Shown: piece by piece, positions 33,811 to 62,441 of the stretch
How the letters are laid out: every line of letters begins with the position of its first letter
Position numbering within the stretch: position 1 is the first letter of the stretch
Assembly: GCA_046350755.1 (NCBI GenBank)
Contig: JAXLZV010000001.1
Span: 160,216 to 224,215, forward strand
DNA from: Candidatus Saccharimonadota bacterium
GTDB taxonomy: Bacteria; Patescibacteriota; Saccharimonadia; CAILAD01; GCA-016700035
Direction of reading: 5' to 3'
DNA length: 64,000 bases
Position numbers and translations under genes: made by a program
Notes under the pieces: generated by a model
Told to the model about the DNA's origin: nothing
Database searches by the model: none
Seen by the model: only the letters and a program-made list of their open reading frames with translations

Positions 33811-34734
33811 TCATGTATCGACCCACTGCGCCACAAGCCGCTCCATGCTAGACGGACCGTATTGCCAGTAGTTCGCTGCTACCTGTACAGCCGCGGCACC
33901 GCAGGCCAGAAACTCCGAGACATCACTCCCCGATGTGATCCCTCCGACGCCGACCACCGGGATCGGTGAACCGCAGCCGCGCAAGGCTTCGACCCACTGC
34001 AGGACTTGGCCGAGGGCAATCGGCTTGTAGGCTGGTCCGGAAAAGCCACCATACTTGGTCGATAGATATGGCTTGCCATCGTCGATGACGACGGCGTTGG
34101 GGAACGTATTGGTAGAAGCGATATAGAGCCGATTCTCAACCGTGCCAGCAGCCAAGCCAGCAATTCGCTCCGCGACGTGAGCAAGCTCTACCGGATTTGA
34201 ATAAGGTGAGACCTTTAGACCAATCGGCCCCCTCCAGAAGGTGGCGAGATCCAAGAGATGAGTCTCAATCCCTTCGATGTCAAAGCTCAAGATCAGCTTT
34301 TGCTGCCGTTCTGACCAAACGTTCGGACAGCCGAGATTCAGCTCGATTGCATCCAGCTGCCAGTCCTTGAAGTGCTTCAGGAGCCCATACCAACCAACCG
34401 GGTATTCCATCGGAGCAAACGAGAGAATCACCCGCTTGCCAGCTTCGCGAGCCATACCCAGCAGCATCAGCCAACGCGAATGCCAATAGTCGTAGTAATC
34501 AAGGCCAGGATCAGGCAAGCCCATGGCATTGAGCATATAGCCAAGCTCATGGTCGTAATACGAGCGCGGCTCTGGATTTCCTACCCGCTCGCTATACGTA
34601 CCGGTCAGCGACCCAAGCACAATAGCGCTGGCAGACGAGTTGACTGCCGCTTCGAACTCTGCGAGGGTCTTGACCATGCCGGGAGCAACCATGATGGGGT
34701 GCTCAAGTTCCATACCTGCAAGCTTGATCGTCAT
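33811..34734 (-). CDS. pyrD: Dihydroorotate dehydrogenase, class 1A-like (catalytic Cys)
   Basis: RVGNPEPRSYYDHELGYMLNAMGLPDPGLDYY, ELNLGCPNV (Cys base), GGFSGPAYKPIALGQV and VVGVGGITSG all resemble L. lactis PyrDA closely. Confidence 0.8.
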   Translation of the reverse strand: MTIKLAGMELEHPIMVAPGMVKTLAEFEAAVNSSASAIVLGSLTGTYSERVGNPEPRSYYDHELGYMLNAMGLPDPGLDYYDYWHSRWLMLLGMAREAGKRVILSFAPMEYPVGWYGLLKHFKDWQLDAIELNLGCPNVWSERQQKLILSFDIEGIETHLLDLATFWRGPIGLKVSPYSNPVELAHVAERIAGLAAGTVENRLYIASTNTFPNAVVIDDGKPYLSTKYGGFSGPAYKPIALGQVLQWVEALRGCGSPIPVVGVGGITSGSDVSEFLACGAAAVQVAANYWQYGPSSMERLVAQWVDT

Positions 34735-34808
34735 GTTAGCTACTTTCGTAAAAGGTACATTCGGTCCGGGTTATTCTGCAAGACTATTGATAATATCTCA
34801 AGCATAAA

Positions 34809-34838
34809 AAGAACCGGTCTGGAGAAAAAACTCCAAAC
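34809..34838 (-). terminator. Candidate terminator between pyrC and pyrD
   Basis: On the minus strand, CCGGTTTGGAG-TTTTTT-CTCCAGACCGG (10 of 11 bp) is followed by a T-rich run. Confidence 0.4.
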
Positions 34839-34853
34839 CGGCTATGTACCAGA

Positions 34854-35921
34854 TCAATCAGCGTTATTACCAAGATCACTGAACCAGAGAACTGATTCGA
34901 CTTGCCAATCGAGGATCTCGCCGGCCTTCCAAGGCTTCATGCCAAAGTATTCCTCCGGCACTCGCCATGGCTGGCGCCACAGAGTGATGCGGGGCCGCCG
35001 CTCGAGTGAGGGTCCGACCCCATAGAAGCTCGCGCCATTTGCGCACATGAAAGCCAAGAAATTCTCCCACTTTTCCGCACCGCCCTGTGCGTCGAAGTGC
35101 TGCCAGAGCACCGGAATTGCCACTGGGCTCGACCACACGCCGGCCGCTCCACCGAGCTTGCGTTCGATGAGATGTGGCGCGGAATCTGAGCCGAAGAAGA
35201 TCTTCGGTCGCCCAGCCGCCTCGAGGATGATGCGCGCCAAGTAGTCACGATCATCTGGCGTCTTGGCGATCGGCATGCAATTGCAATGCGGATCCTGTAT
35301 GGCATCCATCTGGGTGATGAATGGATGATGAGCCGTGATGCTGGCCGCCACCGTCTCCGGCGACGTCAACACATAATCGAGCATGCGCCGGTCGGACACG
35401 TGTTCGACAACGATCTTGAGCTCAGGGTAGGCGTCCACCAACCACTGAAGATGAGGAATGAAGCCGAATTCTCGCTTTTGAGGATCCGACTCCACGTCAG
35501 GTGTCAGCTCAGCGTGAAGACACAACACCATGCCAACGTCTTGCATCGCAGCCAGAACCTCTGGCTGAAGATCACGCGGCGAAGATAGGCCGCTGCCCGA
35601 GTTGGTCGTACCACCATGCGGATAATACTTGGCGGCAATAGCCAGCGGATGGGCGGCCTCGATATCCGACGCCGTCGTGTCGGGCGTGAGATACAGGGCC
35701 ATCCGCGTCCCAATCGAGTTGAGCGCACGCGAGTGGCCAACCAGCCGACCGTAATAGTCGGCCACCGCCTCGGCGGTCGTCACTGGCGGTGTCAGGTTCG
35801 GCATCACCAGATTGTTCAAGAACTGATGTCCGGATAGATCCACGACCCGTTCCATGAGAATGCCGTCGCGCAGGTGGACGTGCCAATCGTCCGGTATCGG
35901 CATTTCGATTCGAATAGTCAT
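34854..35921 (-). CDS. pyrC: Dihydroorotase, class II (E. coli PyrC type)
   Basis: N-terminal DWHVHLRDG metal-ligand motif; the 355-aa length and overall similarity match type II DHOase. GC is visibly elevated, shown by the many long antisense ORFs here. Confidence 0.85.
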   Translation of the reverse strand: MTIRIEMPIPDDWHVHLRDGILMERVVDLSGHQFLNNLVMPNLTPPVTTAEAVADYYGRLVGHSRALNSIGTRMALYLTPDTTASDIEAAHPLAIAAKYYPHGGTTNSGSGLSSPRDLQPEVLAAMQDVGMVLCLHAELTPDVESDPQKREFGFIPHLQWLVDAYPELKIVVEHVSDRRMLDYVLTSPETVAASITAHHPFITQMDAIQDPHCNCMPIAKTPDDRDYLARIILEAAGRPKIFFGSDSAPHLIERKLGGAAGVWSSPVAIPVLWQHFDAQGGAEKWENFLAFMCANGASFYGVGPSLERRPRITLWRQPWRVPEEYFGMKPWKAGEILDWQVESVLWFSDLGNNAD

Positions 35922-35992
35922 CTCGATGTCTTTCGGTTCGTAGGTACAAGAACTCGCCTATTCTGCCACTTTTTGACTCAATTTTCAAGCAT

Positions 35993-36016
35993 AACAAAAA
36001 CGCCCTGAACGGGCGT
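35993..36016 (-). terminator. Rho-independent terminator after rplS
   Basis: On the minus strand, ACGCCC-GTTCA-GGGCGT is followed by TTTTTGTT. Confidence 0.5.
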
Positions 36017-36035
36017 AGTTGAGTGAGTAGTAAGT

Positions 36036-36650
36036 CTACTTCTTGGCTTGGCTTTTATCGTCTTCGGCGTCAGCCTTATCAAGACCTGATTGCGTTTCGT
36101 CAGCTGGCAAGGCTTTTTCGTCATCGCCATCAGCCGAGTCGGTGTCGGCTTCTACTGCTTTGGTCTCTTCTTTGGCCAGATCTTCGGTTGATTCAACAAC
36201 GGCATCTTCGTTGTCGGTAATATCAGCTTCGTTGGCAGCGACTTCAGCTTCGAGGGCAGCAATCTCATCGGTTGTACGATGATCAGCTTCATTAGCTCCC
36301 GCCTTATCAAAATCCTGCTCAACCAAGCGAGCCTTCTTACCGCGCAAACCACGCATATACGAAAGAAAGGCACGACGCACTTTAGCTCGACGCATGACTT
36401 CAATCTTTTCAACGTTTGGCGAGTGCACAAACCAGCTCTTCTCAACACCAACACCCGAAGCAATCTTGCGTACGGTCAAGTAGGCATTGCCTTCATTCGG
36501 CTTGCGGTAGCGGATAACCAGGCCTTCAAATACCTGAGTACGGGTCTTATTTCCTTCGCGAATAATCTGGTGAACCCGGACGGTGTCACCTGGCTTAATC
36601 ACGGGCAGCTTGGCTTTGAGCTGCGACTTTTGCATAACATTGGCTTGCAT
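36036..36650 (-). CDS. rplS: 50S ribosomal protein L19 with a ~90-aa acidic C-terminal extension
   Basis: The first ~115 aa are canonical L19 (VIKPGDTVRVH...GNKTRTQVFEG...RKIASGVGVEK). Then comes an Asp/Glu/Ala-rich tail ending in KK. Confidence 0.9.
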   Translation of the reverse strand: MQANVMQKSQLKAKLPVIKPGDTVRVHQIIREGNKTRTQVFEGLVIRYRKPNEGNAYLTVRKIASGVGVEKSWFVHSPNVEKIEVMRRAKVRRAFLSYMRGLRGKKARLVEQDFDKAGANEADHRTTDEIAALEAEVAANEADITDNEDAVVESTEDLAKEETKAVEADTDSADGDDEKALPADETQSGLDKADAEDDKSQAKK

Positions 36651-36715
36651 AACTCGAGTATTCTATCAGGTTTACTCCGGAATATCAAGACTACTTACGC
36701 AACATATCCTAATTA

Positions 36716-36744
36716 TTGACATCAAGGATATTTTTTATCATAAT
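36716..36744 (+). promoter_or_regulatory. Sigma-70-type promoter driving high-GC island 1
   Basis: TTGACA (36716..36721), a 17-nt spacer and CATAAT (36739..36744), about 33 nt upstream of the ATG at 36778 with an AAAGG RBS. Confidence 0.5.
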
Positions 36745-36777
36745 ATTGAACCTTGTACCTCTACGAAAGGCTATTGC

Positions 36778-37188
36778 ATGCCTCAGCAGCACGTCACCCA
36801 CATCCGCACCATCAAGCGGATCTACGGCAACGCCTACGTCCGCCTCAACGGCAAGCGACCGGTCATCTTCGGTGATCGGGAGGACGTCGAAGTCCTGAAT
36901 GCCACCGGCATCGATCACCCCATGGAGCTCGAGGAACGCGTTCTCAGCGCCATCGAGCTCCTTCCTGGCCATTCCCAAGAGCCCATGCTCCTTTCCATGT
37001 CCGGTGCCCAGGGCGTTGAGATCACTCGCCACCACGGGGTGAACTACTACCGCATCGAGATCTGTGTGAAGGGCAGGTGGCGGCGCCTGCATGGCACCAA
37101 GGCCCAGCGTGCCATCGAGCACGACCTGGCGCTGGCGAAGAAGGCCAGGGTCGACCTCGCTTCTGATGCGACCGCCCCATCTGTGTGA
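36778..37188 (+). CDS. Small hypothetical protein P1 (136 aa), the first of three tandem related small proteins
   Basis: ATG with RBS; GC-rich codon usage. EICVKGRWRRLHG and AIEHDLALAKKA loosely echo the ECxCG and A..HY..VL..AL segments of P2 and P3. Confidence 0.5.
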   Translation: MPQQHVTHIRTIKRIYGNAYVRLNGKRPVIFGDREDVEVLNATGIDHPMELEERVLSAIELLPGHSQEPMLLSMSGAQGVEITRHHGVNYYRIEICVKGRWRRLHGTKAQRAIEHDLALAKKARVDLASDATAPSV

Positions 37189-37303
37189 CTTCACTAGTCA
37201 CCCGCCCGCAACCATTCATTTGGTTGCGGGCATTGTTATTGATCACGCATGATATCTATGTTTTAATCACGGCAGTACCTACGACCCTCCTGGAGGAATT
37301 GTT

Positions 37304-37603
37304 ATGCCCGGTTTCATCTTCCCTGAAGGACTTTTCATCTGCGGCCACACGGTCAAGCGGCTCATGGTGCCACAGAAGCAAGGCACGGTTCCGCTTATCC
37401 GACACTTCGCGGAGTGCAGTTGTGGCGAGCGCGTCGAAGTCACCGGTGTGATCGGTGACGAGATCACCGCTGAGTATGAACGAGCCCGCCTCACGCATTA
37501 CGTCATGGTTCTCAACGAAGCCCTGACGGAAGCAAGCTTCAGCGGTGGTGGCGAGTTGCTGGCCGGATCAGATGCCGATGACGGCGAACGGCTCGGTGGC
37601 TGA
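37304..37603 (+). CDS. Small hypothetical Cys/His protein P2 (99 aa)
   Basis: ICGHTV...ECSCGERVEV...ARLTHYVMVLNEAL is clearly paralogous to P3. Its TGA stop is followed 1 nt later by the P3 ATG. Confidence 0.55.
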   Translation: MPGFIFPEGLFICGHTVKRLMVPQKQGTVPLIRHFAECSCGERVEVTGVIGDEITAEYERARLTHYVMVLNEALTEASFSGGGELLAGSDADDGERLGG

Positions 37604-37604
37604 G

Positions 37605-38009
37605 ATGGACCTTTCCTTCTCGCTCAATAAGGGTATTCTCGGCCATCGCGTGCACAGCTACGCCTCGGCGACACCAACCGGACGTTGGTTTCGGGTCGAG
37701 CGAATAGCCACTGTCGAATGCAAGTGCGGCGCCAAGCTGGAGCTGGACTGGCGAGACCTACCCGAACACTTCACTACATGGGGCGAGCGGATGGCGCTAG
37801 CACACTACCTGAATGTGCTTCACGCAGCGCTCGCACAAGGCATTCAGGCTACCAGTTGGCCGCCGCCGGAACCAGTTCCGCACTCAGGCGAACTCGGGCG
37901 AGACACACTCGCGCCCGATCACGACTACGAAGCCGATGATGATTTCGGTTTTCCCGATCCAGACGCACCAATCCCACGACGCCAACATCCACCCGGCACC
38001 ATTGGGTAA
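37605..38009 (+). CDS. Small hypothetical Cys/His protein P3 (134 aa), paralog of P2
   Basis: ILGHRV...ECKCGAKLEL...MALAHYLNVLHAAL aligns with P2 motif-for-motif. It has an acidic, proline-rich C-terminal tail. Confidence 0.55.
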   Translation: MDLSFSLNKGILGHRVHSYASATPTGRWFRVERIATVECKCGAKLELDWRDLPEHFTTWGERMALAHYLNVLHAALAQGIQATSWPPPEPVPHSGELGRDTLAPDHDYEADDDFGFPDPDAPIPRRQHPPGTIG

Positions 38010-38018
38010 AAAACTTCA

Positions 38019-38054
38019 CCCGCTACCGAATACAACGGTAGCGGGCTTATTATT
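38019..38054. terminator. Bidirectional terminator between the convergent P3 and gmk-like genes
   Basis: A perfect 10-bp stem CCCGCTACCG-AATACAA-CGGTAGCGGG with T-rich flanks. Confidence 0.55.
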
Positions 38055-38065
38055 ACTGACGAAAA

Positions 38066-38794
38066 TCAGCGGCCGTGATGACCAAGCGTCTCGATCTGAA
38101 CTGCTTCATCCAGACAATCCGACACGATTCCACAGAGCTCATCAGCAGCCTCATCCAGCCGATCGTTGATGACTACATGAGGCCATGTGCCAAGGATCTC
38201 CGGGATCTCCCACCTGGCGCGCATGAGTTTTTGCTCGATGACCGTCTCCTCGTCTCCGCGACCGACCAAGCGCATTTCGAGCGCTCCCAGCATTTCGGTC
38301 TGAACGATGATCGATCCGGCAATGGCGAACCAGTAGCGACCCTGCCCATCGTCAAGCAATGCTAGACGCTGGGCTTCCTGCAGCCGACTCGTTCCGGCTG
38401 GCGTCAGACAGGGCGGCAGGATGCCGATCAGATGAACGGCCGGGAAATTCTCCACCAACATTGACTTGGCGAATAGCTGGAGGGCGCCATTGACATCGAG
38501 ATCTCGCAACTCGATGCCTGGCGTGCTCGGATTGACGTAGGAGCCGTAGTAGCCGCCAGTGGCATTCTGCGAGTGCTCGACGATACTGCCGGCCGCGCGT
38601 TCGCGCATGAAGTCTTCGACCGACAGATAGACGTACTTCGAATTGCCGGCGTCGTCATAGTCGTCTTCGCGCGGTTGGCGCGTCGTCGCCTTGCGGCCGA
38701 CAATCAGTTGCGGGAACTGCTTCATGAGGTACTTCATCAGCGTGTCCTTGCCGACACCTTCCGGCCCAGAGATACAGAAAATGTGCGAAGTCAT
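38066..38794 (-). CDS. gmk: Guanylate kinase homolog with a ~35-aa insertion
   Basis: ISGPEGVGKDTL (P-loop), ATTRQPREDDYDDAGNSKYVYLSVEDF (GMP-binding TTRxPRxGE..G.DY.FVS.E.F), EH...GGYYG, ILPP and RGDEETVIEQKLMRA...VVINDRLDEA all match E. coli Gmk segment-for-segment. It is GC-rich like the rest of island 1. Confidence 0.8.
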   Translation of the reverse strand: MTSHIFCISGPEGVGKDTLMKYLMKQFPQLIVGRKATTRQPREDDYDDAGNSKYVYLSVEDFMRERAAGSIVEHSQNATGGYYGSYVNPSTPGIELRDLDVNGALQLFAKSMLVENFPAVHLIGILPPCLTPAGTSRLQEAQRLALLDDGQGRYWFAIAGSIIVQTEMLGALEMRLVGRGDEETVIEQKLMRARWEIPEILGTWPHVVINDRLDEAADELCGIVSDCLDEAVQIETLGHHGR

Positions 38795-38868
38795 AGCCTT
38801 CTTCCCTCATTTGCGTATAAGGTACGATTACCGGGGATTATATCGGCCCGAAGCGTTTTGGCGCAAGC

Positions 38869-41800
38869 TTACTCGACAAGCAAGGCGTCTTCGGCAACGA
38901 CGTCGGCTAATTGACTTTTGAGCTTTTCGGACACCGCGACTTTGAAGGGTAAGCGAATCTTTTGTCCGGTCGAGGCCAGCTGGACCATAGTTTCAGTTTG
39001 TCCAGGTGCAGCCTGCAGAACCGTCTTGAGTCGGAGCAGCACGACTTGATCTTTGAGATCCTGAAGCGTGATAACAATTCGCGCCGCTTCCTGGGCAGCT
39101 GACGGATCAAGCTCGGGCACTAGAGCTTCACCGGTAGCGATATAGTGCTTGAGTACGCTAGCATCAATCTTCTTGGCTTTGTCAGCCATAACCTTGATGT
39201 CTTCAGTGGTCTTGCCGTCGCGATCTTTAGCGTTGACCTTACCCTGCACCACTACCAGCTGATCTGCCACCCAGAGATCCGGCGTAGCATCATAGGCCCG
39301 TGGGAACACGATCAGCTCGATATCACCTTGTATCGTCTCAAGGCCAACGAACGCCATCGCATCACCTTTCTTGGTCACGATCTTACGAACGGTGGTGATG
39401 ACGCCGCCGACGGTTACCTTTTCACCGTCCATACCTGGCTTAAGCGCTACCGCTGGCGTAGTCTTTTCGCGCAGCCACGCTTCGACTTCGCGCAATGGAT
39501 GACTGGAGAGATACAACCCAAGCAGTTCTTTCTCCCACTGCAAGAATTCTCGCTCCCCAAGGATTTCGCTCGGAGCATCAAGCGGCAATGACGGCACATC
39601 TTCGGTCGCCCCCATGCTGCCAAAGATATCGATCTGGCCCGATAAGGCATTCTTCTGCACTTTACTCATATAGATAACGATCTTATCGAGGTTCGCAAAC
39701 AGCGTGGCGCGATCGCCGATCGAGTCAAAGGCCCCCACCTTCATGAGTGCTTCAATGGCTTTTTTATTAATCTCCCGGGCATCAACCCGCCGGACAAAGT
39801 CCTCAATCGAAGTAAATGACCCACCTTCCTCACGCGCTGCCAGAATGGCGTTGACTGGACCGACTCCGACATTTTTAATCGCCGCGAGACCAAAGCGAAT
39901 CACGTCCTTGCCCTCTCCACTCGAGTCTTTGACGACCGCAAATTCCGCGAATGACTCATTGACATCTGGTGGCAAAACCTCCATGCCCATCTTGCGACAT
40001 TCCGAGACCTCAATAGCCACGCGATCTAAATTGCCATGATCAGAGGTCAACAGAGCCGCCATAAAAGCGGCCGGATAGTGTGCCTTAAGATAGGCGGTTT
40101 GCACGGCGATCAAGGCGTAACAAGCCGCATGGCTCTTATTAAAACAATAGGCCGCAAAGTCTTCGATCGAGCCCCATAGCTGTTCGACAAAACTCCGATC
40201 GGCATCAGAGTGTTTAATCGCCCCTTCAATAAAATCCTTTTTCATCTTGGCGATGACTTCAGGGATCTTCTTGCCAATTCCTTTACGCAAGGTGTCGGCC
40301 TGGCCACCAGTAAAGCCGCAGAGATCTTTTGAAATCTGCATAACCTGCTCTTGATAAACGATGATGCCGTAGGTTTCCTTGAGGGCCGCTTCCATCTTTG
40401 GGTGGTCAAAATGTATGCGCTCCGGGTGGTGCTTACGACCAATGAAGTCTTCGATCCACTGCATTGGACCTGGGCGATACAGCGCCACCATAGCGATAAT
40501 ATCCTCGAAGCGATCAGGCTTGAGTTCGCGAATATAGCGCTTCATGCCAGCTGATTCCAACTGGAAGACACCGGTAGTATCGCCGCGGGCTAAGAGTTCA
40601 TACGTTGCCGTATCATCAATTGGAATCTCCCCGACATCGATCGTCTTGCCATACACACGCTTGATGATGCGCAGGGCATTCTTGATGATCGTCAAGTTCG
40701 ACAGCCCCAAAAAGTCGAACTTCAACAGGCCCAAATCCTCCATGGTTGTGCCAATGTACTGCGTCGACACGCCACCCTTTGAGGCGCGAGTTAATGGCAC
40801 ATACTCCACTAGCGGTTCGGGCGCAATCACCACCCCAGCAGCGTGAGTCCCGGCGTTGCGAATTGTCCCCTCGAGCTGCATAGCGATATCGATCAAGCGC
40901 TTGGTACGCGGATTCGTATCATATTCTTTCTTCAGGTCTGGATCATCGACGATCGACTTCTTGAGCGGAATATGGCGACCCTGAATCGGCGCTGGAATCA
41001 GCTTGGCGATCGCGTCAACCTCACCGTATGGCATCGCGAGCACACGACCCGTATCGCGCACAGCGTTTCGCGCCGCCATTACGCCGAAGGTGATGATCTG
41101 GGCGACTTTCTCCTGCCCATACTTCTCAGTGGCATAGGCGATCACCTCTTCGCGTCGGTCGTCAGCAAAGTCCATGTCGATATCGGGCATAGAGATGCGA
41201 TCTGGATTCAAGAAGCGCTCGAATAGTAGTTCATACTTCAATGGATCCAGATCAGTAATATTCGTCACATAGGCCACGATCGAACCAGCCGCCGAGCCCC
41301 GACCCGGCCCACAGACGATGCCTTGATTCTTTGACCAGTTCAACAGATCAGCAACAATGAGGAAGTAGCCGTCGTAGCCCATGCGCGCAATGACCTCAAG
41401 CTCATACTCGATTCGTTCGACGACTTCTTTCGGCAACTTCGGGCGAGCAGTTTTCTCGCCATAATGACTGATGTCTTCCTTGGGTATGTTGCCGTACCGC
41501 CACATCGCGCCCTGATAGACCAACTCGCGCAAATATTCACGCTCGGTTCGACCTTCTGGCACTTCAAACTTCGGAATCAAAATCTTGCCGAGCTCAATTT
41601 CAAGATTGCATCGCTCAGCGATCTTGACGGTATTCTCGAGTGCATCCAGATCATCGGGAAAACGTTCGGCAATCGAGTCGCCGGAGTGGATCGACAGGTC
41701 TTGGTCAAGCTTGAAGCGGTTCGGGTCCTCAATAGTTGAACCGGTTTGCACGCACAGTAAAATGTCATGGGCGTAGTGTTGCGATTCTTTTGAGTAGTGA

Positions 41801-42489
41801 GCATCACCGGTAACGACCTTGCCGAGTCCCAGCTCCTGGGCAAGCTTTCGTAAGCCAGCGTTTACCTTATCCTGCGGCTCCCAGCCAATATGTGGCTGCA
41901 TTTCCAGATAATAATTATCCTTCCCGAAAGTCTGTGCATACCACTCGGCCGCCAGCTTGGCTTCTGCATAATTATCCGCTAGCAAATGGGTGCCAACCTC
42001 GCCACCAATACAACCGGTAAGGGCAATGAGGCCTTCGTGATACTTCTCGATCAGCTCACGATCGATCCGTGGCTTGTAGTAAAAGCCCTCGAGGTTTGCG
42101 ATAGTAGACAGCTGCATAAGATTCTTGTAGCCTGTTTCATTCATGGCTAGAAGCGTGAGGTGATAGGGACTGCGGTCTTCGCGCGTACTCTTATCAGTGT
42201 GTTTGCGTGGTGCGACGTAGGCCTCCATGCCAATAATCGGCTTAATATCGCGCTTCTTGCACTGTGTGTAGAACTCAATTGCTCCCGACAACGTACCGTG
42301 ATCGGTAATCGCGACTGCTGTTTGGCCCAGCTCTTGTACCCAATCCAGCATATCGGGAATCTTCTGTAAGCCATCGAGTAGCGAATAATGGGTGTGATTA
42401 TGTAGGTGTACAAAAGGTACCGACTGTTTTTTCACAGTCGTAGCCTTCCCCTGCTCTGTCGCCGCCGCACGTGTCATATCACTTACCAT
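38869..42489 (-). CDS. dnaE: DNA polymerase III alpha subunit (DnaE)
   Basis: N-terminal PHP domain (HLHNHTHYSLLDG), the polymerase core (Pol III alpha) and an OB fold at the C-terminus; 1206 aa. Confidence 0.95.
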   Translation of the reverse strand: MVSDMTRAAATEQGKATTVKKQSVPFVHLHNHTHYSLLDGLQKIPDMLDWVQELGQTAVAITDHGTLSGAIEFYTQCKKRDIKPIIGMEAYVAPRKHTDKSTREDRSPYHLTLLAMNETGYKNLMQLSTIANLEGFYYKPRIDRELIEKYHEGLIALTGCIGGEVGTHLLADNYAEAKLAAEWYAQTFGKDNYYLEMQPHIGWEPQDKVNAGLRKLAQELGLGKVVTGDAHYSKESQHYAHDILLCVQTGSTIEDPNRFKLDQDLSIHSGDSIAERFPDDLDALENTVKIAERCNLEIELGKILIPKFEVPEGRTEREYLRELVYQGAMWRYGNIPKEDISHYGEKTARPKLPKEVVERIEYELEVIARMGYDGYFLIVADLLNWSKNQGIVCGPGRGSAAGSIVAYVTNITDLDPLKYELLFERFLNPDRISMPDIDMDFADDRREEVIAYATEKYGQEKVAQIITFGVMAARNAVRDTGRVLAMPYGEVDAIAKLIPAPIQGRHIPLKKSIVDDPDLKKEYDTNPRTKRLIDIAMQLEGTIRNAGTHAAGVVIAPEPLVEYVPLTRASKGGVSTQYIGTTMEDLGLLKFDFLGLSNLTIIKNALRIIKRVYGKTIDVGEIPIDDTATYELLARGDTTGVFQLESAGMKRYIRELKPDRFEDIIAMVALYRPGPMQWIEDFIGRKHHPERIHFDHPKMEAALKETYGIIVYQEQVMQISKDLCGFTGGQADTLRKGIGKKIPEVIAKMKKDFIEGAIKHSDADRSFVEQLWGSIEDFAAYCFNKSHAACYALIAVQTAYLKAHYPAAFMAALLTSDHGNLDRVAIEVSECRKMGMEVLPPDVNESFAEFAVVKDSSGEGKDVIRFGLAAIKNVGVGPVNAILAAREEGGSFTSIEDFVRRVDAREINKKAIEALMKVGAFDSIGDRATLFANLDKIVIYMSKVQKNALSGQIDIFGSMGATEDVPSLPLDAPSEILGEREFLQWEKELLGLYLSSHPLREVEAWLREKTTPAVALKPGMDGEKVTVGGVITTVRKIVTKKGDAMAFVGLETIQGDIELIVFPRAYDATPDLWVADQLVVVQGKVNAKDRDGKTTEDIKVMADKAKKIDASVLKHYIATGEALVPELDPSAAQEAARIVITLQDLKDQVVLLRLKTVLQAAPGQTETMVQLASTGQKIRLPFKVAVSEKLKSQLADVVAEDALLVE

Positions 42490-42604
42490 TGTACGCCAAG
42501 AACGCGAGCGTTTTAATCTTGACTTTTATGCTCATTTATGATATCGTGCGCGAGTTCTATGTAATCGCATGGATAACCTTCACAACCTAGAGAAAGAGGA
42601 CGCC

Positions 42605-43288
42605 ATGAAGTCTTCAGGTGAGTTGCTCCGAGAATATCTCGAGCAGCAGCCCGAGAAGATCAAGGATGTGCGCAATTTCTGTAATGTTGCTAGCAAGACC
42701 GTGAGATCGTGGCTCAAGGGTACCAACCCGAAGGGCATCACACAGTGTAGACTCTTCGTCTACCTACTCGAACAGCAGCTAGCGCCAGCAGAGTTGCTCA
42801 AGACCGAACCCGACATCATTCTCCTTGCCGTTCTGGTGGCTCACGACTATGTGAGCTCTCAAGAGGCCATGAAGGTGATGGGCTCTACCTCCAAGTCTGA
42901 TCAGCAGCTCTGGGGTTGGATCCGTAGCGACACACAGCCGCTGCCCAAAGCCCTAGAGCTCCTGCAAGACTGGCTGGATGCAGTCGATGGCGATCGCTCA
43001 CGAAGACTGATCGCCGCAGAATTTCTCGGTACGACAACCGTGGCGGAGCAATCCCCCGCAAACGTCATTCCGTTGTCGTTCGACTCGAGCGACCAGATCA
43101 TCGAGAATTTGGCAGCATTGTTGTCAGCGGTCTACCCACTCGCCAAGCGCGTGGAAGCCGATGACTTCAGTAATGCCGACCGTGAACGCCTTCGGGCGCT
43201 GATCGGTGAAGACCAGTTCTTCAAGCTCACGAACGCCCTGACCCGCCTCTCCGGCACCAAGGCACGTTCGTACACCCAGTCCATTTAA
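42605..43288 (+). CDS. Hypothetical protein with a putative N-terminal helix-turn-helix
   Basis: An AAAGAGGA RBS lies 6 nt before the ATG at 42605 (alternative ATG at 42569). EYLEQQPEKIKDVRNFCNVASKTVRSWLKG resembles an XRE-type HTH. The C-terminus is unknown. Confidence 0.5.
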   Translation: MKSSGELLREYLEQQPEKIKDVRNFCNVASKTVRSWLKGTNPKGITQCRLFVYLLEQQLAPAELLKTEPDIILLAVLVAHDYVSSQEAMKVMGSTSKSDQQLWGWIRSDTQPLPKALELLQDWLDAVDGDRSRRLIAAEFLGTTTVAEQSPANVIPLSFDSSDQIIENLAALLSAVYPLAKRVEADDFSNADRERLRALIGEDQFFKLTNALTRLSGTKARSYTQSI

Positions 43289-43311
43289 CCCAACACCCCA
43301 AGGAGTACGGC

Positions 43312-45009
43312 ATGACCCGCCGTCGACGTCCCCGTCCAACCCAGGGTGGCCGTAAGGCCCCCGCGACCCCGGCGACACCTCAGCCCATTCGGGATAAGGT
43401 GTCGTTCAACCAGGGCAAGGTCATCATGCACCTTGCCAAGTCGACCTACACCACGTTGATCCAGGTGATCGCTGAGTGCGTCCAGAACGCACTCGACGCC
43501 GGTGCAACCGTCATCGACATCGCTGTCGATGAGAAGCGGCGCAGCATCGTCGTTGCCGACAACGGCGGTGGCGTGACTCTGGAGAAGTTCCACGAGGCCC
43601 TTGGCTCCGTTGGGCATGGGATCAAGGATCCCGGCTCACTCGGACGCTTCGGCCTCGGCCTCATCTCGCCGCTCGATAAGTGCGACTACTACACCTTCAG
43701 CTCCTGGCTTCCCGGCGAGTCGAAGGGGTGGTGCTGGACCTTCCGGGCCGGTGAGATCGAGGCGATGGCCGACGAAGTCGACATCCCTCGGGCTGGTGCC
43801 AAGCGTCACGCTGGCGCTGAGTGGAATACCATCGTGCGCATCCACCGCTACACCTCCGACTCGCAGACGGCCGCAATGACGGCTGAACGCGTCGAGGAAT
43901 TCGTGCAGTCCAAGCTGGGACCCACCATGCGCAAGCGCGGTGTGACCTGCCGGCTGCACTTCGGTGGCCCAGACGGCGAGGTCGTCCAGAAGACGATCAA
44001 GCCGACCGACTTCACCGGTGAGCCTTTCGAGATCACGATCTACACCGAGCCCGACGCGGGCGAAGTGGAGTTCGAGCTCTACCGCGCCCGCAAGACGACC
44101 AAGGGTCGTCAGGGCATGGTGAGTCTCTCGGAAGCGGATGCCCCATACCCGATCACCTTCACCGAGTTCAAGCGGCAGGCTCACGCCTTCCTCGGCGACG
44201 ACGTGAAGAAGGCTCTCAGCTCCGGCTACTTTGAGGGCATCATTCGAGCCAAGAAGGTGGAGCTGCATCCCAACCGCCGCAAGTTCGTCTGGAATGACGC
44301 GGTTGTCGGGCTCTGCATCGCCATCGAACAGTGGTTCGAAGACATCGGGCACAAGCTCTACACCGATGAGCAGGTCCAGGAAGAGGAGGCTCGCCTCCAG
44401 CGCCTGGGCGTGCAGACGCTCGACCGGCTGAAGGATCTCCTCAAGCTGGAAGAGTCGGAACACCTGCGCAAGATCATCGAAAGCCTGCATGTCGGCTCGA
44501 TCGGCAGTGGGCACAACGAGCTCCCCAGCTCGGGGGACATGGATGAGCGTGGTTTGCGCTCTGGTCAGGGCGGCACGGGCAAGCCCCGCAACCGCAATGG
44601 TCAGACCAAGCCACGTGATCCGTCGAAGCCCAAGCAGCCCGAACGGACCGGCGACAAGCCGGGTGTCTCGGTTGGCCCCGAGGGCCAGCACCGCAAGGTG
44701 GTGCGCGACAGCTCGACCGGTATCTCCATCTGCCACGAGATCCTGCCCGGTTCCGACCGACTGTGGGAGATCGACGCAGCGTCGGCGATGATCTACATCA
44801 ACGTGCGTCACCCGGTGTTCTTGCTCGTCGAGCACGCCGACACGTACGTCTTGCAGCTGCAGGAGTGGATCGTGCTGCAGGCGCTGTCGTTGCTGATGTT
44901 CCCGGTCGACAGCCGAGAGCTCCTCCACGACTACGCAGACAGCTACGCTCGCGAGTTCGTGGTGGTCTCGATCCTCGGATCGAGACAGCGCCGCCGCGGT
45001 AGCGTCTGA
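43312..45009 (+). CDS. GHKL/Bergerat-fold ATPase (MORC / MutL-N / HATPase_c_3-like) with an unknown C-terminal region
   Basis: AAGGAG RBS. The N-box is IAECVQNALDAGAT, the G1 box is VADNGGGVT and the G2 box is LGRFGLGLISP. Downstream is a Gly/Lys/Pro/Arg-rich low-complexity linker, then a C-terminal domain of unknown function. Confidence 0.7.
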   Translation: MTRRRRPRPTQGGRKAPATPATPQPIRDKVSFNQGKVIMHLAKSTYTTLIQVIAECVQNALDAGATVIDIAVDEKRRSIVVADNGGGVTLEKFHEALGSVGHGIKDPGSLGRFGLGLISPLDKCDYYTFSSWLPGESKGWCWTFRAGEIEAMADEVDIPRAGAKRHAGAEWNTIVRIHRYTSDSQTAAMTAERVEEFVQSKLGPTMRKRGVTCRLHFGGPDGEVVQKTIKPTDFTGEPFEITIYTEPDAGEVEFELYRARKTTKGRQGMVSLSEADAPYPITFTEFKRQAHAFLGDDVKKALSSGYFEGIIRAKKVELHPNRRKFVWNDAVVGLCIAIEQWFEDIGHKLYTDEQVQEEEARLQRLGVQTLDRLKDLLKLEESEHLRKIIESLHVGSIGSGHNELPSSGDMDERGLRSGQGGTGKPRNRNGQTKPRDPSKPKQPERTGDKPGVSVGPEGQHRKVVRDSSTGISICHEILPGSDRLWEIDAASAMIYINVRHPVFLLVEHADTYVLQLQEWIVLQALSLLMFPVDSRELLHDYADSYAREFVVVSILGSRQRRRGSV

Positions 45010-45030
45010 TCCTTTCTCTCTAGTTGTTTC

Positions 45031-45062
45031 GCCGGAGCCCTTTGGGCTCCGGTTTTCTTTTT
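45031..45062 (+). terminator. Strong rho-independent terminator after the GHKL ATPase gene
   Basis: GCCGGAGCCC-TTT-GGGCTCCGG followed by TTTTCTTTTT. Confidence 0.65.
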
Positions 45063-45081
45063 ATTCAGCGTCATGAATCTA

Positions 45082-45110
45082 TTGACTTTAAACCCTTATG
45101 ATTGTAATAT
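45082..45110 (+). promoter_or_regulatory. Candidate sigma-70 promoter for the 45155..45835 gene
   Basis: TTGACT, a 17-nt spacer and TAATAT, with an AAGGAG RBS before the GTG at 45155. Confidence 0.4.
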
Positions 45111-45154
45111 ATTTTTACTGTTCGCCCGAACATTCGTACCTTACAAGGAGCACT

Positions 45155-45835
45155 GTGGATACACCAACCGAACCCACCAAACGACAGCCGGGAGCCGCAT
45201 CGACGCGCTCCTGCAGCCTGAACGAAGCTCTGTCGAGCTTCTATGCCCTCAAGGGATGGCTCAGACGGCGCCAGCTCGATGACTGGCTGCCACAGCTCGC
45301 CATCGTCTGGACCGACCGCAACGGCCATGCCGTTCTGGCAATCCGTGGCGACAACGCCATGGGCCCTGCACCGCAGGATGCCAATCAGGCGGCCCAAGCC
45401 GCATTGCGCCCGCACTGCATCGAGCAGGGAGCTGCCACCATTCAGACAGCCGCCAAGCAGGTGCTGGGGGCAGTTGGGGTCTACGGACGCAGTCCAGCCG
45501 ACAACCATCTCGTCGCCTGCCTGGCAGCGGAGTTGGTCTTCGAGCCAGATATGCCAGCAGAACTCCTTGAGGTCTGCGTCGAGGAGCGCTTCCAGCAAGA
45601 CGGCCTCGAAGTCCCAGACGTGCCATTGGCGGTCTCGCCAGGTGTGTCATCATTCGCAGGTTTGCAAGCGGTGATGGCTGGAGCTGGCGTGTTGAGGCTC
45701 TTGCCTGGCCAAACCTACGGCTGGCCGAGCCAGCTCGATCCGCCGCTGACGCAACCACAAGCCGGTGTCAGACTCATCACCGAGCGTGACATCCCCGGCC
45801 ACGTACCGGGGCATGGTGGTGGACTCTTCGGCTGA
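45155..45835 (+). CDS. Hypothetical GC-rich protein (last gene of island 2)
   Basis: A GTG start 5 nt after the AAGGAG RBS; Ala/Gly/Pro-rich with no recognisable motif. The ORF-track start at 45098 runs into the AT-rich promoter and is unlikely. Confidence 0.45.
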   Translation: MDTPTEPTKRQPGAASTRSCSLNEALSSFYALKGWLRRRQLDDWLPQLAIVWTDRNGHAVLAIRGDNAMGPAPQDANQAAQAALRPHCIEQGAATIQTAAKQVLGAVGVYGRSPADNHLVACLAAELVFEPDMPAELLEVCVEERFQQDGLEVPDVPLAVSPGVSSFAGLQAVMAGAGVLRLLPGQTYGWPSQLDPPLTQPQAGVRLITERDIPGHVPGHGGGLFG

Positions 45836-57020: not shown

Positions 57021-57094
57021 TGGAGGCACCTACCGGAATTGAACCGGTGTACGCGGTTTTGCAGACCGCTGCGTAACCACTCCGCCAAGGTGCC
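57021..57094 (-). tRNA. tRNA-Cys (anticodon GCA)
   Basis: Anticodon loop CUGCAAA, T-loop GGTTCAATTCC and a U73 discriminator (a Cys identity element) followed by CCA. Confidence 0.85.
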
Positions 57095-57132
57095 GAAGCG
57101 CGTTGACATTATACCTTATCAGGTGGGAAACA

Positions 57133-57161
57133 TTGAAATTTATCTGAAAATCGGCTACTAT
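57133..57161 (+). promoter_or_regulatory. Candidate promoter for the tRNA-Phe/tRNA-Gly operon
   Basis: TTGAAA, a 17-nt spacer and TACTAT, about 30 nt upstream of tRNA-Phe. Confidence 0.4.
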
Positions 57162-57190
57162 TATGCAGTTCGCACCTTCTGTTTTGACGA

Positions 57191-57266
57191 GGCACCTTAG
57201 CTCAGTTGGTAGAGCGACGGCCTGAAGAGCCGTGCGTCGTAGGTTCGATTCCTACAGGTGCCACCA
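57191..57266 (+). tRNA. tRNA-Phe (anticodon GAA)
   Basis: GGCACCTTAGCTCAGTTGGTAGAGC..., anticodon loop CUGAAGA and a 3' ACCA. Confidence 0.9.
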
Positions 57267-57280
57267 GAATATTTTTGCAC

Positions 57281-57356
57281 GCGGGTGTAGCTCAGCTGAT
57301 AGAGCGCTTCCTTGCCAAGGAAGAGGCCCCGGGTTTGAGTCCCGGTACCCGCACCA
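57281..57356 (+). tRNA. tRNA-Gly (anticodon GCC)
   Basis: GCGGGTGTAGCTCAGCTGATAGAGC..., anticodon loop UUGCCAA and a 3' ACCA. Confidence 0.9.
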
Positions 57357-60513: not shown

Positions 60514-60640
60514 AGGCGGCTATCTGGTATCTCTCCTGGAATCAACTAGGAAACACTTATCTGATACTAATCTGTCCAACAGATAGCAGATAGCCGTCTT
60601 CACCTGAAGGCGCGTCCACTCTGGATCCGCCCTAGGAGGG
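60514..60640 (+). promoter_or_regulatory. Structured ~130-nt 5' leader with nested inverted repeats and five TATCTG/CAGATA hexamer copies; candidate riboregulator or MITE-like insert
   Basis: CGGCTATCTG (60517..60526) pairs with CAGATAGCCG (60587..60596), and GTATC pairs with GATAC inside it. CAGATAG is tandemly duplicated. A CACC segment can pair with the GGTG of the AGGAGGGTG RBS region. Confidence 0.35.
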
Positions 60641-60645
60641 TGAAA

Positions 60646-61769: not shown

Positions 61770-61846
61770 GGGTAATTAGCTCAGCTGGTTAGAGCGCTGC
61801 ATTCACATTGCAGAGGTCACAGGTTCGAGTCCTGTATTACCCACCA
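61770..61846 (+). tRNA. tRNA-Val (anticodon CAC)
   Basis: GGGTAATTAGCTCAGCTGGTTAGAGC..., anticodon loop UUCACAU and a 3' ACCA. Upstream there is a TTTATA, a 17-nt spacer and TATAAT. Confidence 0.9.
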
Positions 61847-61847
61847 C

Positions 61848-61923
61848 GGGGCTATAGCTCAGCTGATAGAGCGCTGCATTCGCATTGCAGAGGTCGGGAG
61901 TTTGAATCTCCCTAGCTCCACCA
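61848..61923 (+). tRNA. tRNA-Ala (anticodon CGC)
   Basis: GGGGCTATAGCTCAGCTGATAGAGC..., a G3:U70 pair in the acceptor stem (GGGGCTA/TAGCTCC), anticodon loop UUCGCAU and a 3' ACCA. Confidence 0.9.
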
Positions 61924-61926
61924 CCG

Positions 61927-61955
61927 TTGAAATCTCGATTATTTCAGGTTATAAT
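61927..61955 (+). promoter_or_regulatory. Consensus sigma-70 promoter for tRNA-Val(TAC)
   Basis: TTGAAA (61927..61932), a 17-nt spacer and TATAAT (61950..61955), 10 nt before the tRNA 5' end. Confidence 0.5.
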
Positions 61956-61965
61956 ATGTCGACTT

Positions 61966-62042
61966 GGGTGATTAGCTCAGCTGGCTAGAGCATCTCGTTT
62001 ACACCGAGAGGGTCGGGGGTTCGAGTCCCTCATCACCCACCA
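61966..62042 (+). tRNA. tRNA-Val (anticodon TAC)
   Basis: GGGTGATTAGCTCAGCTGGCTAGAGC..., anticodon loop UUUACAC and a 3' ACCA. Confidence 0.9.
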
Positions 62043-62050
62043 TAAAAAGT

Positions 62051-62384: not shown

Positions 62385-62441
62385 AGTAAGACTCTCCTTT
62401 TCTTCGAGAATAGTGTATCATAGTGGCGTTCCCGCTATCTC

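What the first reader, a model, noticed from the sequence alone, without database searches (positions are those of the whole stretch)
36760..38830. High-GC island carrying a xenologous guanylate kinase plus three tandem small proteins, driven by a consensus AT-rich promoter
Directly after the rplS start the sequence switches to strongly GC-rich coding DNA for about 2 kb. A textbook TTGACA-17-CATAAT promoter (36716..36744) sits in AT-rich DNA right at the boundary. The minus-strand gene (38066..38794) matches E. coli Gmk segment-for-segment (P-loop, the TTRxPRxGE..DY GMP site, YYG, ILPP and the lid RG region) but carries a ~35-aa insertion. Its composition is unlike that of the neighbouring dnaE and rplS. 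If this is the only gmk, an essential nucleotide-salvage enzyme has been replaced or acquired horizontally from a high-GC donor. For a host-dependent small-genome bacterium the donor could be the host lineage; that is inference.
Basis: partly seen in the sequence, partly recalled or inferred. Interest (0 to 1): 0.7.

Follow-up and report, generated by a model that had tools for sequence, protein, structure and literature searches.

The report
Lineage-specific guanylate kinase, not recent transfer
The GC-richer 2-kb stretch holds a divergent guanylate kinase and three orphan small-protein genes that a whole subgroup of Saccharibacteria carries at this same spot, so it is an old lineage-specific feature and not a freshly imported foreign gene.

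Summary
Region 36778..38794 is 58.7% GC against a 52.5% window mean. The TTGACA-17-CATAAT promoter is there. The minus-strand gene 38066..38794 encodes a guanylate kinase (Gmk) fold with a 39-aa insertion before the lid.

Recent transfer from a high-GC donor is not supported. All 14 related Candidatus Saccharibacteria loci show dnaE–gmk–(small ORFs)–rplS. In relatives of 45–53% GC, gmk is again 3–9 GC points above dnaE and rplS. Silent sites between them are saturated, so the offset is maintained locally and is not a donor relic.

Two outgroup Saccharibacteria have dnaE next to rplS with no gmk. The gene therefore entered this locus once, in the subgroup's ancestor, by relocation or ancient transfer. 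Which one is unresolved.

The clade is isolated: 4 clusters among 1.84 billion representatives, and no phage, plasmid or labelled actinobacterial relative as sister. Most catalytic residues are kept and pN/pS is 0.12–0.30, so it is probably the working Gmk.

The small proteins form two orphan families. B and C share an invariant His/Cys/Cys/His pattern. Gene A has its own terminator, and B–C have their own promoter.

A subgroup-specific GTACCT box follows the −10 element of gmk, A, B and two pyrimidine-type genes.

The parts
36036..36650 (-). rplS (ribosomal protein L19 with acidic C-terminal extension); flank of the locus
   Evidence: PF01245 homologues at 52-100% identity; syntenic in all related loci
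36660..36688 (-). rplS promoter-like site, TTGATA-17-TAGAAT with TG extension. The -10 ends 9 nt before the ATG, so the mRNA is leaderless or has a leader of about 3 nt.
   Evidence: the sequence is conserved across relatives
36716..36744 (+). Promoter-like site TTGACA-17-CATAAT for gene A, divergent from rplS
   Evidence: 11/12 match. An equivalent TTGAC[AT]-17-[CT]A[TGC]AAT site lies at the same distance from rplS in 10 related loci
36755..36760 (+). GTACCT box, 10 nt after the -10 and 17 nt before the ATG of A
36778..37188 (+). Gene A, 136 aa orphan protein, GC3 0.82
   Evidence: 82% identical orthologue in L005, pN/pS 0.33. Homologous to the 116-159 aa proteins at the same position in L001, L011, L012, L013 (hhalign probability 90.9%, E 1.2e-6). 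No Pfam, NCBIfam, PHROG or PADLOC match
37204..37231 (+). Terminator-like hairpin after A (11-bp stem, 8 GC pairs, T-rich tail)
37239..37280 (+). Promoter-like site for B-C: TTGATC-17-TTTAAT (37239..37267) followed by a GTACCT box (37275..37280)
   Evidence: sequence read; motif analysis
37304..37603 (+). Gene B, 99 aa, member of the B/C small-protein family (putative His/Cys/Cys/His metal site)
   Evidence: Alignment A3: invariant G14, H15, C38, C40, H65 in 11 members from 8 loci. tblastn hits in L001-L004 and L007. GGAGG ribosome-binding site 6 nt before the ATG
37605..38009 (+). Gene C, 134 aa, paralogue of B with a Pro/Asp-rich tail. Its start is 1 nt after the stop of B.
   Evidence: 37% identical to B. 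86% identical orthologue in L005, pN/pS 0.14. A 133-aa counterpart exists in L009
38018..38046 (.). Bidirectional terminator-like hairpin between convergent C and gmk
   Evidence: found on both strands
38066..38794 (-). gmk: divergent guanylate kinase, 242 aa
   Evidence: PF00625 43.1 bits, above cutoff; TIGR03263 85.6 bits, below cutoff 160. PDB sequence hits are Gmk. AlphaFold model pLDDT 85, and the 50 best Foldseek PDB hits are all Gmk. pN/pS 0.12-0.30
38294..38410 (-). 39-aa clade-specific insertion (residues 129-167) between the ILPP strand and the lid motif RLxGRG
   Evidence: Alignment A1 against canonical Gmk. Modelled as helix 131-145 plus a low-confidence loop. Its sequence varies within the clade.
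38820..38866 (-). gmk promoter-like site: TTGCGC (38866..38861), 18 nt, TATAAT (38842..38837), 11 nt, GTACCT box (38825..38820)
   Evidence: A -10-like hexamer plus G[TC]ACCT is conserved upstream of gmk in all 12 loci compared
38869..42489 (-). dnaE (DNA polymerase III alpha); flank of the locus
   Evidence: Pfam architecture in relatives; 80-92% identity to relatives

Best explanation
The window comes from a Candidatus Saccharibacteria genome. The gene at 38066..38794 is the lineage's own divergent guanylate kinase (GMP + ATP -> GDP + ADP). It has a 39-aa helical/loop insertion in front of the lid and a few clade-specific active-site changes: yeast Ser34 -> Lys, P-loop GPEGVGKD, and PRxGE -> PRxDD.

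The gene came to lie between dnaE and rplS once, in the common ancestor of a Saccharibacteria subgroup. It has been inherited vertically there since, under purifying but relaxed selection, with its own promoter.

The space between gmk and rplS is a variable accessory slot. It carries one to three genes of two orphan small-protein families, transcribed away from rplS from a conserved strong promoter.

The GC (mainly GC3) excess is a locally maintained property of these genes in every member of the subgroup. It is not the scar of a recent import.

Shown: fold, motifs, synteny, distribution, composition, selection. Inferred: enzymatic activity, that this is the only gmk, and the cause of the GC3 excess (local recombination with GC-biased repair, or codon selection).
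For: Identity as Gmk:
- PF00625 scores above its cutoff.
- All significant PDB sequence hits above E 1e-4 are guanylate kinases, apart from one large multidomain chain, FAP42.
- The AlphaFold model has pLDDT 85 and pTM 0.81, and the 50 best PDB fold matches are all Gmk with probability 1.0.
- P-loop G-x-x-G-x-G-K, TTR, R38, R41, Y53 (yeast Y50), E72 (E69), Y82-G83-S84 (Y78-G79-S80) and the lid RLxxRG are invariant or nearly so in 24 clade members, as is D99 (D100); D99 is Gly in the divergent L014 member.

Lineage and vertical inheritance:
- There are 24 homologue clusters at 46-100% identity, all 230-246 aa.
- Seven GTDB species carry it, all titled Candidatus Saccharibacteria.
- dnaE-gmk-[0.1-2.9 kb]-rplS is found in all 14 loci examined.
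- pS of gmk equals that of dnaE and rplS in close pairs: L001/L003 0.39 vs 0.32 and 0.25; L007/L008 0.41 vs 0.41 and 0.38.

Single ancient arrival:
- Outgroups L016 (dnaE, 46 nt, rplS) and L015 (two unrelated small ORFs) lack gmk here.
- Their DnaE is 65-67% identical to every gmk-carrying locus and to each other. Identity within the gmk-carrying group is at least 78%.

Composition is not a fresh scar:
- gmk exceeds dnaE and rplS by 3-9 GC points in genomes of 45%, 50%, 52% and 53% GC.
- It has the highest GC3 of 12 syntenic genes in both the window and L001.
- Silent sites between those genomes are saturated, pS 0.78.

Native regulation: gmk carries a -10 element plus the subgroup-specific GTACCT box in every locus.

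No mobile-element signs:
- No flanking repeats, and no tRNA within 18 kb.
- No match in plasmids, phages or viral contigs.

Functional constraint: pN/pS is 0.12-0.30.
Against: - The NCBIfam equivalog TIGR03263 scores only 85.6 bits against a cutoff of 160.
- Ser34, a guanine-contacting residue in yeast Gmk by my recollection of the 1GKY literature, is Lys in the whole clade. The Asp100 equivalent is Gly in the most divergent member, L014. Altered specificity or partial loss of function is therefore possible.
- Amino-acid change is 5-14 times faster than in dnaE, although UPF0102 is equally divergent.
- The absence of a second, canonical gmk elsewhere in these genomes was not tested.
- The origin of the gene before it reached this locus is unresolved. 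Sister-group bootstrap support is at most 48%.
- Between the window and L005, the island has lower silent divergence (pS 0.34-0.48) than dnaE (0.74). This hints at exchange between relatives and not strictly vertical descent.
Confidence: 0.68

Rival explanations
1. Ancient xenologous replacement. In the ancestor of the subgroup, a foreign gmk from an unsampled donor was inserted between dnaE and rplS and replaced the native gene. Everything afterwards was vertical.
For: - Outgroups lack gmk at this locus.
- The clade is separated from all other Gmk sequences by a large score gap, 261 to 119 bits.
- gmk has accessory-like composition.
- The word-indexed search returned high-GC Actinomycetota-type Gmk at about 34% identity. 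One example is P0025, in a mihF-gmk-rpoZ context at 72% GC.
Against: - In the exhaustive profile search and the NJ tree, the nearest sequences are 182-190 aa Gmk proteins; the group that could be placed (P0389 type) lies on 42-48% GC contigs. They share the WP..(I/V)(I/V)ND motif and a lengthened PP..RL linker.
- Labelled Actinomycetota are not among the 25 most frequent sister-set members in 200 bootstraps.
- In those nearest groups, gmk is also GC-richer than its neighbours. The GC excess therefore looks like a property of the gene family in these genomes and not a donor trait.
- A donor signature cannot persist through saturated silent sites.
Confidence: 0.2
2. One reading: a recent horizontal acquisition of a high-GC island (gmk plus three small genes) from a high-GC donor such as the actinobacterial host.
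For: Local GC is 0.587 against 0.525, with an abrupt boundary at an AT-rich promoter region.
Against: - The same genes sit at the same place in relatives whose DnaE is only 78-93% identical.
- The relative GC excess recurs in 45% GC genomes.
- No close homologue exists outside the subgroup among 1.84 billion representatives.
- There are no repeats, integrase or nearby tRNA, and no plasmid or phage match.
- gmk uses the lineage-specific promoter layout.
Confidence: 0.02
3. A neofunctionalised Gmk-like paralogue. The housekeeping gmk lies elsewhere, and this copy has taken a new role: different nucleotide specificity, a regulatory or binding role like MAGUK GK domains, or a function tied to the neighbouring small-protein genes.
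For: - The score is below the equivalog cutoff.
- Clade-specific changes occur at the guanine-contacting Ser34 and in the P-loop, and Asp100 is lost in L014.
- Amino-acid evolution is fast.
- The convergent pairing with the B/C family genes is constant in most loci.
Against: - All phosphate-binding and lid arginines, E69, Y50 and Y78 are kept.
- Purifying selection acts on the gene.
- JGI annotators and Pfam call it guanylate kinase.
- L014 keeps gmk but has no small ORFs, and L011-L013 lack the B/C family, so the pairing is not obligatory.
- No second gmk appeared in the 64-kb window. None of the listed hits had a longest contig of 916,044 or 700,989 bp, which is weak evidence.
Confidence: 0.1

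Closest known systems
Canonical bacterial and yeast guanylate kinase (Gmk/GUK1; Pfam PF00625, NCBIfam TIGR03263; e.g. PDB 1GKY, 2AN9, 10SR)
   Same: - Same three-part fold of core, GMP-binding domain and lid (Foldseek probability 1.0, target-normalised TM about 0.7).
- P-loop, TTRxPR, Y50, E69, YYGS, D100 and the RLxGRG lid motif are conserved.
   Different: - 242 aa instead of 180-210.
- 39-aa variable insertion between the ILPP strand and the lid.
- Ser34 -> Lys; GPSG -> GPEG; PRxGE -> PRxDD; QG -> NG; second lid Arg -> Lys; a clade-specific WEIPEIL motif.
- Only 22-26% identity to solved structures.
- Below the TIGR03263 cutoff.
Short Gmk group P0243/P0389, P0245, P0253, P0256 (182-190 aa, unnamed metagenomic proteins; loci L017-L019)
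   Same: - Best non-clade scores in the exhaustive search, 94-119 bits.
- Members share individual clade traits: the WP-x-(I/V)(I/V)ND motif (P0243, P0245), GKDT in P0253, and a linker a few residues longer between PP and RL.
- In the two genomes examined for this group (L017, L019) gmk is GC-richer than its neighbours.
- They are the NJ sister candidates.
   Different: - No 39-aa insertion, and Ser34 is retained.
- Different genomic context: glycosyltransferases, MFS, aldolase, SmpB.
- Their taxon was not established.
- Only about 30-34% identical to the clade.
Core-flanked accessory hot spots ('integration hot spots') in bacterial genomes, named from general knowledge
   Same: - A slot between two conserved core genes whose content varies among relatives: zero to four small genes, and a 425-aa extra gene in L005.
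- Atypical composition.
- A second such slot lies on the other side of dnaE at 42.5-45.9 kb.
   Different: - No integrase, tRNA or repeats.
- The content is orphan small-protein families, not recognisable mobile or defence genes.

Membership tests
Guanylate kinase (Pfam PF00625) | Score above Pfam's gathering threshold | tested here: met
   43.1 bits against 25.2, but only residues 6-87 are matched in one stretch
Guanylate kinase equivalog (NCBIfam TIGR03263) | Score above the curated equivalog cutoff | tested here: not met
   85.6 bits against 160.45. The insertion splits the match into two stretches.
Guanylate kinase | P-loop G-x-x-G-x-G-K for ATP | tested here: met
   G9-P-E-G12-V-G14-K15-D-T. 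G12, G14 and K15 are invariant in the clade.
Guanylate kinase | GMP phosphate and guanine ligands (yeast numbering: S34, R38, R41, Y50, E69, Y78, S80, D100) | tested here: inconclusive
   R38, R41, Y50, E69, Y78, S80 and D100 equivalents are conserved. S34 is Lys in all 24 members, and D100 is Gly in L014. The roles of these residues are recalled from the 1GKY literature and were not re-derived here.
Guanylate kinase | Lid motif RLxGRG with catalytic arginines | tested here: met
   R174, L175, R178, G179 are invariant. The following lid Arg is replaced by an invariant Lys188.
Guanylate kinase | Gmk fold | tested here: met
   AlphaFold model pLDDT 85.1. The top 50 Foldseek PDB hits are all Gmk, E 3e-15 to 4e-13.
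Guanylate kinase | GMP kinase activity; sole essential copy in the genome | not testable with these tools
   No whole-genome access to the window's organism or to CP064998.1, and no assay.
Recently transferred genomic island | Absent from close relatives, or present in other contexts | tested here: not met
   Present at the same locus in all 14 related loci.
Recently transferred genomic island | Mobility marks: integrase, flanking direct repeats, tRNA target, similarity to plasmids or phages | tested here: not met
Recently transferred genomic island | Close homologue in a compositionally matching donor lineage | tested here: not met
   The best non-clade hit is 119 bits, about 30-34% identity.

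The most novel reading that the evidence does not exclude
The dnaE-rplS spacer of this Saccharibacteria subgroup may be a lineage-specific accessory slot. An essential nucleotide kinase was relocated or anciently replaced there and remodelled (lid insertion, Ser34Lys). It sits next to an orphan, probably metal-binding, small-protein operon. Together with two pyrimidine-type genes, these units share a previously undescribed promoter-proximal GTACCT element. On this reading they form one regulon of nucleotide-metabolism and accessory genes, and their elevated GC3 is actively maintained, for example by recombination-associated biased repair. The kinase itself may have altered specificity or regulation.
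Probability: 0.15. Interest if true: 0.5.

Novelty: new variant of a known kind. Interest (0 to 1): 0.25.

Why it matters
As a claim of host-to-epibiont gene transfer it would have been notable, but the evidence points away from that.

What remains is a small, previously undescribed Gmk subfamily restricted to one Saccharibacteria subgroup. It scores below the equivalog cutoff that annotation and marker-gene pipelines use. By my recollection TIGR03263 is also a GTDB bac120 marker. These genomes may therefore be scored as lacking gmk, which affects metabolic reconstructions and completeness estimates for these ultra-small bacteria.

The case also shows that a compositional island can be a stable, lineage-wide property and not a sign of transfer.

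The GTACCT promoter-proximal box and the orphan His/Cys small-protein families are leads for gene regulation in an almost unstudied phylum.

Tried and rejected
1. Structure prediction of C with only B as its alignment gave pLDDT 48.5 and is unusable.
2. Pfam, NCBIfam, PHROGs and PADLOC gave nothing for A, B or C, including member-by-member scans of the family alignments at E up to 5.
3. Rfam found no RNA family in 35800..39000.
4. The idea that GTACCT pairs with the Shine-Dalgarno sequence to form a 5'UTR hairpin was rejected. Seven leaders folded with no consistent structure, and five of seven z-scores lay between -0.4 and +0.9.
5. The idea that GC3 tracks evolutionary rate across genes was rejected. 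Spearman rho was about -0.1 over 12 syntenic genes.
6. Naming the organisms of the nearest short Gmk sequences failed.
7. A Foldseek search against AFDB50, meant to give taxon labels, was unavailable.
8. A viral-contig scan for the B/C family was impossible because no stretch is conserved enough.
9. A literature search for Saccharibacteria plus guanylate kinase returned nothing on this variant.
10. A second gmk could only be excluded within the 64-kb window.
Full report
**1. Observation**

The 64-kb window averages 52.4% GC. The stretch 36778..38794 is 58.7% GC. That is +2.6 sd for 2-kb windows, and only 3.5% of such windows are as rich. Almost all of those lie in a second, richer block at 42.4-46.4 kb.

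The excess is mainly at third codon positions. GC3 is 0.70 for gmk, 0.82 for A, 0.67-0.68 for B and 0.63 for C. Core genes range from 0.49 to 0.60, including dnaE at 0.59 and rplS at 0.49.

The promoter TTGACA-17-CATAAT is at 36716..36744, an 11/12 match. It sits in the 127-bp AT-rich spacer shared with a divergent rplS promoter-like site.

The ORFs are:
- A: 36778..37188 (+)
- B: 37304..37603 (+)
- C: 37605..38009 (+)
- A 242-aa gene: 38066..38794 (-)

Terminator-like hairpins follow A (37204..37231) and lie between the convergent C and gmk (38018..38046). B is preceded by its own TTGATC-17-TTTAAT site. The 'consensus promoter' therefore serves A only.

**2. The 242-aa protein is a guanylate kinase fold**

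- Pfam PF00625 is above threshold, 43.1 against 25.2 bits. NCBIfam's equivalog TIGR03263 is well below its cutoff, 85.6 against 160 bits.
- PDB sequence hits are guanylate kinases in two blocks separated by the insertion.
- An AlphaFold model built on the 24-sequence clade alignment has pLDDT 85 and pTM 0.81. Its 50 best Foldseek PDB matches are all guanylate kinases.

Against canonical sequences, the protein has a 39-aa insertion (residues 129-167) between the ILPP strand and the RLxGRG lid. It is modelled as a helix plus a low-confidence loop, and its sequence varies within the clade.

Conserved features are the P-loop glycines and lysine, TTR, R38, R41, Y53, E72, Y82-G83-S84, D99, R174 and R178.

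Clade-specific changes are Lys at the yeast Ser34 position, GPEG for GPSG, PRxDD for PRxGE, NG for QG, Lys188 for a lid Arg, and a WEIPEIL motif.

**3. Whose gene is it**

The word-indexed search found 24 clusters of 230-246 aa at 46-100% identity. There is then a jump to canonical 180-195 aa Gmk at no more than 34% identity.

A scan of one genome per GTDB species found seven carriers. All are titled 'uncultured Candidatus Saccharibacteria bacterium'.

In every locus fetched, 14 in total, the order is dnaE-gmk-(0.1-2.9 kb)-rplS. These include a 916-kb complete genome (CP064998.1) and a 701-kb JGI contig.

An exhaustive profile search of 1.84 billion representatives found only four clusters of this type. 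After them the score falls from at least 261 bits to 119 bits. No relative occurs in viral contigs, plasmids or phages. There are no flanking repeats and no nearby tRNA.

**4. Composition is a lineage-wide property**

| Locus | gmk GC | dnaE GC | rplS GC |
|---|---|---|---|
| L001 | 0.505 | 0.447 | 0.472 |
| L003 | 0.502 | 0.446 | 0.481 |
| L005 | 0.594 | 0.505 | 0.501 |
| L014 | 0.558 | 0.511 | 0.532 |

Among 12 syntenic genes, gmk has the highest GC3 both in the window and in L001. Silent sites between the window and L001 are saturated (pS 0.78-0.80). A signature inherited from a donor could not have survived that much turnover, so the offset must be maintained locally.

GC3 does not correlate with protein divergence across the 12 genes.

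In the contexts examined for the nearest short Gmk groups, gmk is also GC-richer than its neighbours: L017 at 0.50 against about 0.43, L019 at 0.55 against about 0.46, and L020 at 0.58 against 0.54.

**5. How it got to this locus**

Two outgroup Saccharibacteria lack gmk here:
- L016 has dnaE, 46 nt, then rplS.
- L015 has two unrelated small ORFs between them.

Their DnaE is 65-67% identical to all gmk-carrying loci and to each other. The gmk-carrying loci are at least 78% identical among themselves. The simplest history is one arrival in the ancestor of the subgroup. This is an inference, because no rooted species tree was available.

An NJ tree of 141 Gmk sequences recovers the clade in 200 of 200 bootstraps. 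Its sister is unresolved:
- P0256: 48%
- P0253: 42%
- The P0389 group: 24%

Labelled Actinomycetota are not among the 25 most frequent sister-set members. These are P0096, P0418, P0498, and P0025 with its mihF-gmk-rpoZ context at 72% GC.

The candidate sisters are 182-190 aa proteins; the one group with retrievable DNA (P0389 type, L017-L019) lies on 42-48% GC contigs. They share derived-looking traits with the clade, namely the WP..IIND motif, GKDT, and a longer PP..RL linker. Their taxon could not be established. Relocation of a native gene and ancient transfer therefore both remain possible. Recent transfer from a high-GC donor does not.

**6. Selection**

In unsaturated pairs, gmk has pN/pS of 0.12-0.30, against 0.015-0.08 for dnaE. 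In the close pairs L001/L003 and L007/L008 its pS is similar to that of its flanks. It is a constrained gene but a fast-evolving one. At 52% identity to L001 it ties with UPF0102 as the most divergent of the 12 syntenic genes.

One oddity remains. Between the window and its closest relative L005, silent divergence is 0.34-0.48 for A, C and gmk, but 0.74 for dnaE and 0.60 for rplS. Nucleotide identity is 0.83-0.89 in the island against about 0.79 in dnaE. This suggests either exchange of the slot between related lineages or constraint on GC3. It was not resolved.

**7. The small proteins**

B and C are paralogues, 37% identical. With counterparts in L001/L003, L005, L007, L008, L009 and L010 they form a family with invariant Gly14-His15, Cys38, Cys40 and His65. 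This is a plausible metal site, but that is an inference. B-type members often end in ELLGG.

A is homologous to the 116-159 aa proteins at the equivalent position in L001, L011, L012 and L013 (hhalign probability 90.9%, E 1.2e-6).

Copy number and content of the slot vary from none (L014) to four genes (L005, which has an extra 425-aa gene). The outward-facing promoter is conserved wherever small ORFs are present.

None of the three proteins matches Pfam, NCBIfam, PHROGs or PADLOC. Their function is unknown. They are cytoplasmic-looking, lineage-specific and under purifying selection (A 0.33, C 0.14).

**8. A shared promoter layout**

GTACCT lies 7-14 nt after a -10-like hexamer and 13-25 nt before the start codon of seven separate genes in the window:
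- gmk
- A
- B
- The pyrD-like gene
- The amidohydrolase (pyrC-like) gene
- The ORF starting at 45155
- A 99-aa ORF at 62586..62885

By my own estimate, about 0.4 such placements are expected by chance.

Thirty-six instances occur in ten loci of the subgroup, including upstream of gmk in 7 of the 12 loci compared; the other five have GCACCT there. None occur in promoter context in the outgroups or in the contigs of the nearest short Gmk sequences. gmk is thus wired into a lineage-specific promoter architecture. The leaders do not fold into a consistent hairpin, and the role of the box is unknown.

**9. Verdict**

The identification as a Gmk with an insertion is confirmed.

The finding is a new sequence variant of a known enzyme in a poorly studied phylum, sitting in a variable accessory slot. 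Interest is modest. Whether this is the only gmk in the genome is the main untested point.

Noticed in passing
window 34753..34758(-), 35942..35947(-), 36755..36760(+), 37275..37280(+), 38820..38825(-), 45136..45141(+), 62902..62907(-); also L001, L005, L007, L009-L014: GTACCT box. The hexamer lies 7-14 nt after a -10-like element and 13-25 nt before the start codon of separately transcribed, mostly GC-rich genes. There are 36 instances in ten loci of the subgroup and none in promoter context in the outgroups. It may be an operator, an initiator or a 5'UTR element of a subgroup-specific regulon. No consistent RNA hairpin was found.
   Followed up: partly
window 36650..36688 (-): The TG-extended -10 of rplS (TAGAAT) ends 9 nt before the ATG. 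The L19 mRNA is therefore probably leaderless or has a leader of about 3 nt. The sequence is almost invariant across relatives.
   Followed up: no
window 42569..45835: This is the GC-richest block of the window (0.60-0.66). It holds a 239-aa orphan, a 565-aa HATPase_c_3 (GHKL ATPase) protein with GC3 0.83, and a roughly 226-aa orphan. It lies on the other side of dnaE, in a slot that holds different genes in L001 and L005. It looks like a second variable accessory slot.
   Followed up: partly
window 33811..35921 (-): A dihydroorotate-dehydrogenase gene (PF01180) and an amidohydrolase (dihydroorotase-like) gene lie downstream of rplS. Both are GC3-rich (0.64 and 0.68) and each has its own GTACCT promoter. 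The pair is also present in L014, L007 and L009. In L001, L003 and L010 it is replaced by two to three paralogous 130-166 aa orphan genes.
   Followed up: partly
window 36778..38794 vs L005: Silent-site divergence of A, C and gmk (pS 0.34-0.48) is much lower than that of the flanking dnaE (0.74) and rplS (0.60). B, in the middle, is only 37% identical at the protein level. This is a mosaic pattern suggesting exchange of parts of the slot between related lineages.
   Followed up: partly
window 37304..37603; L005, L007, L009, L010 counterparts: B-type small proteins end in a conserved ...(G/S)ELLGG C-terminus. The next gene (C type) starts 1 nt after or overlapping the stop. This recalls diglycine termini of ubiquitin-like or leader peptides, but there is no supporting evidence.
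   Followed up: no
window 37204..37231 and 38018..38046; L014 about 7930..7960: The terminator hairpins share the stem CCCGC(A/T)ACC...GGT(T/A)GCGGG. A near-identical hairpin follows gmk in L014. This may be a recurrent terminator or REP-like element.
   Followed up: no
L019 12141..13563: On the contig carrying the nearest short Gmk, purC and purE have GC3 of 0.86 and 0.79, against about 0.45 for their neighbours. This compositional outlier is much stronger than the finding itself.
   Followed up: no
L008 2163..5929: dnaE of this MAG appears interrupted. The tblastn match is split into two pieces and stops appear in the extracted frame. This is probably an assembly or frameshift artefact.
   Followed up: no
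window 57021..57356 and 61770..62526: There are two tRNA clusters: Cys/Phe/Gly and Val/Ala/Val/Leu. The GC-rich orphan gene 60640..61662 (GC3 0.77) abuts the second cluster.
   Followed up: no
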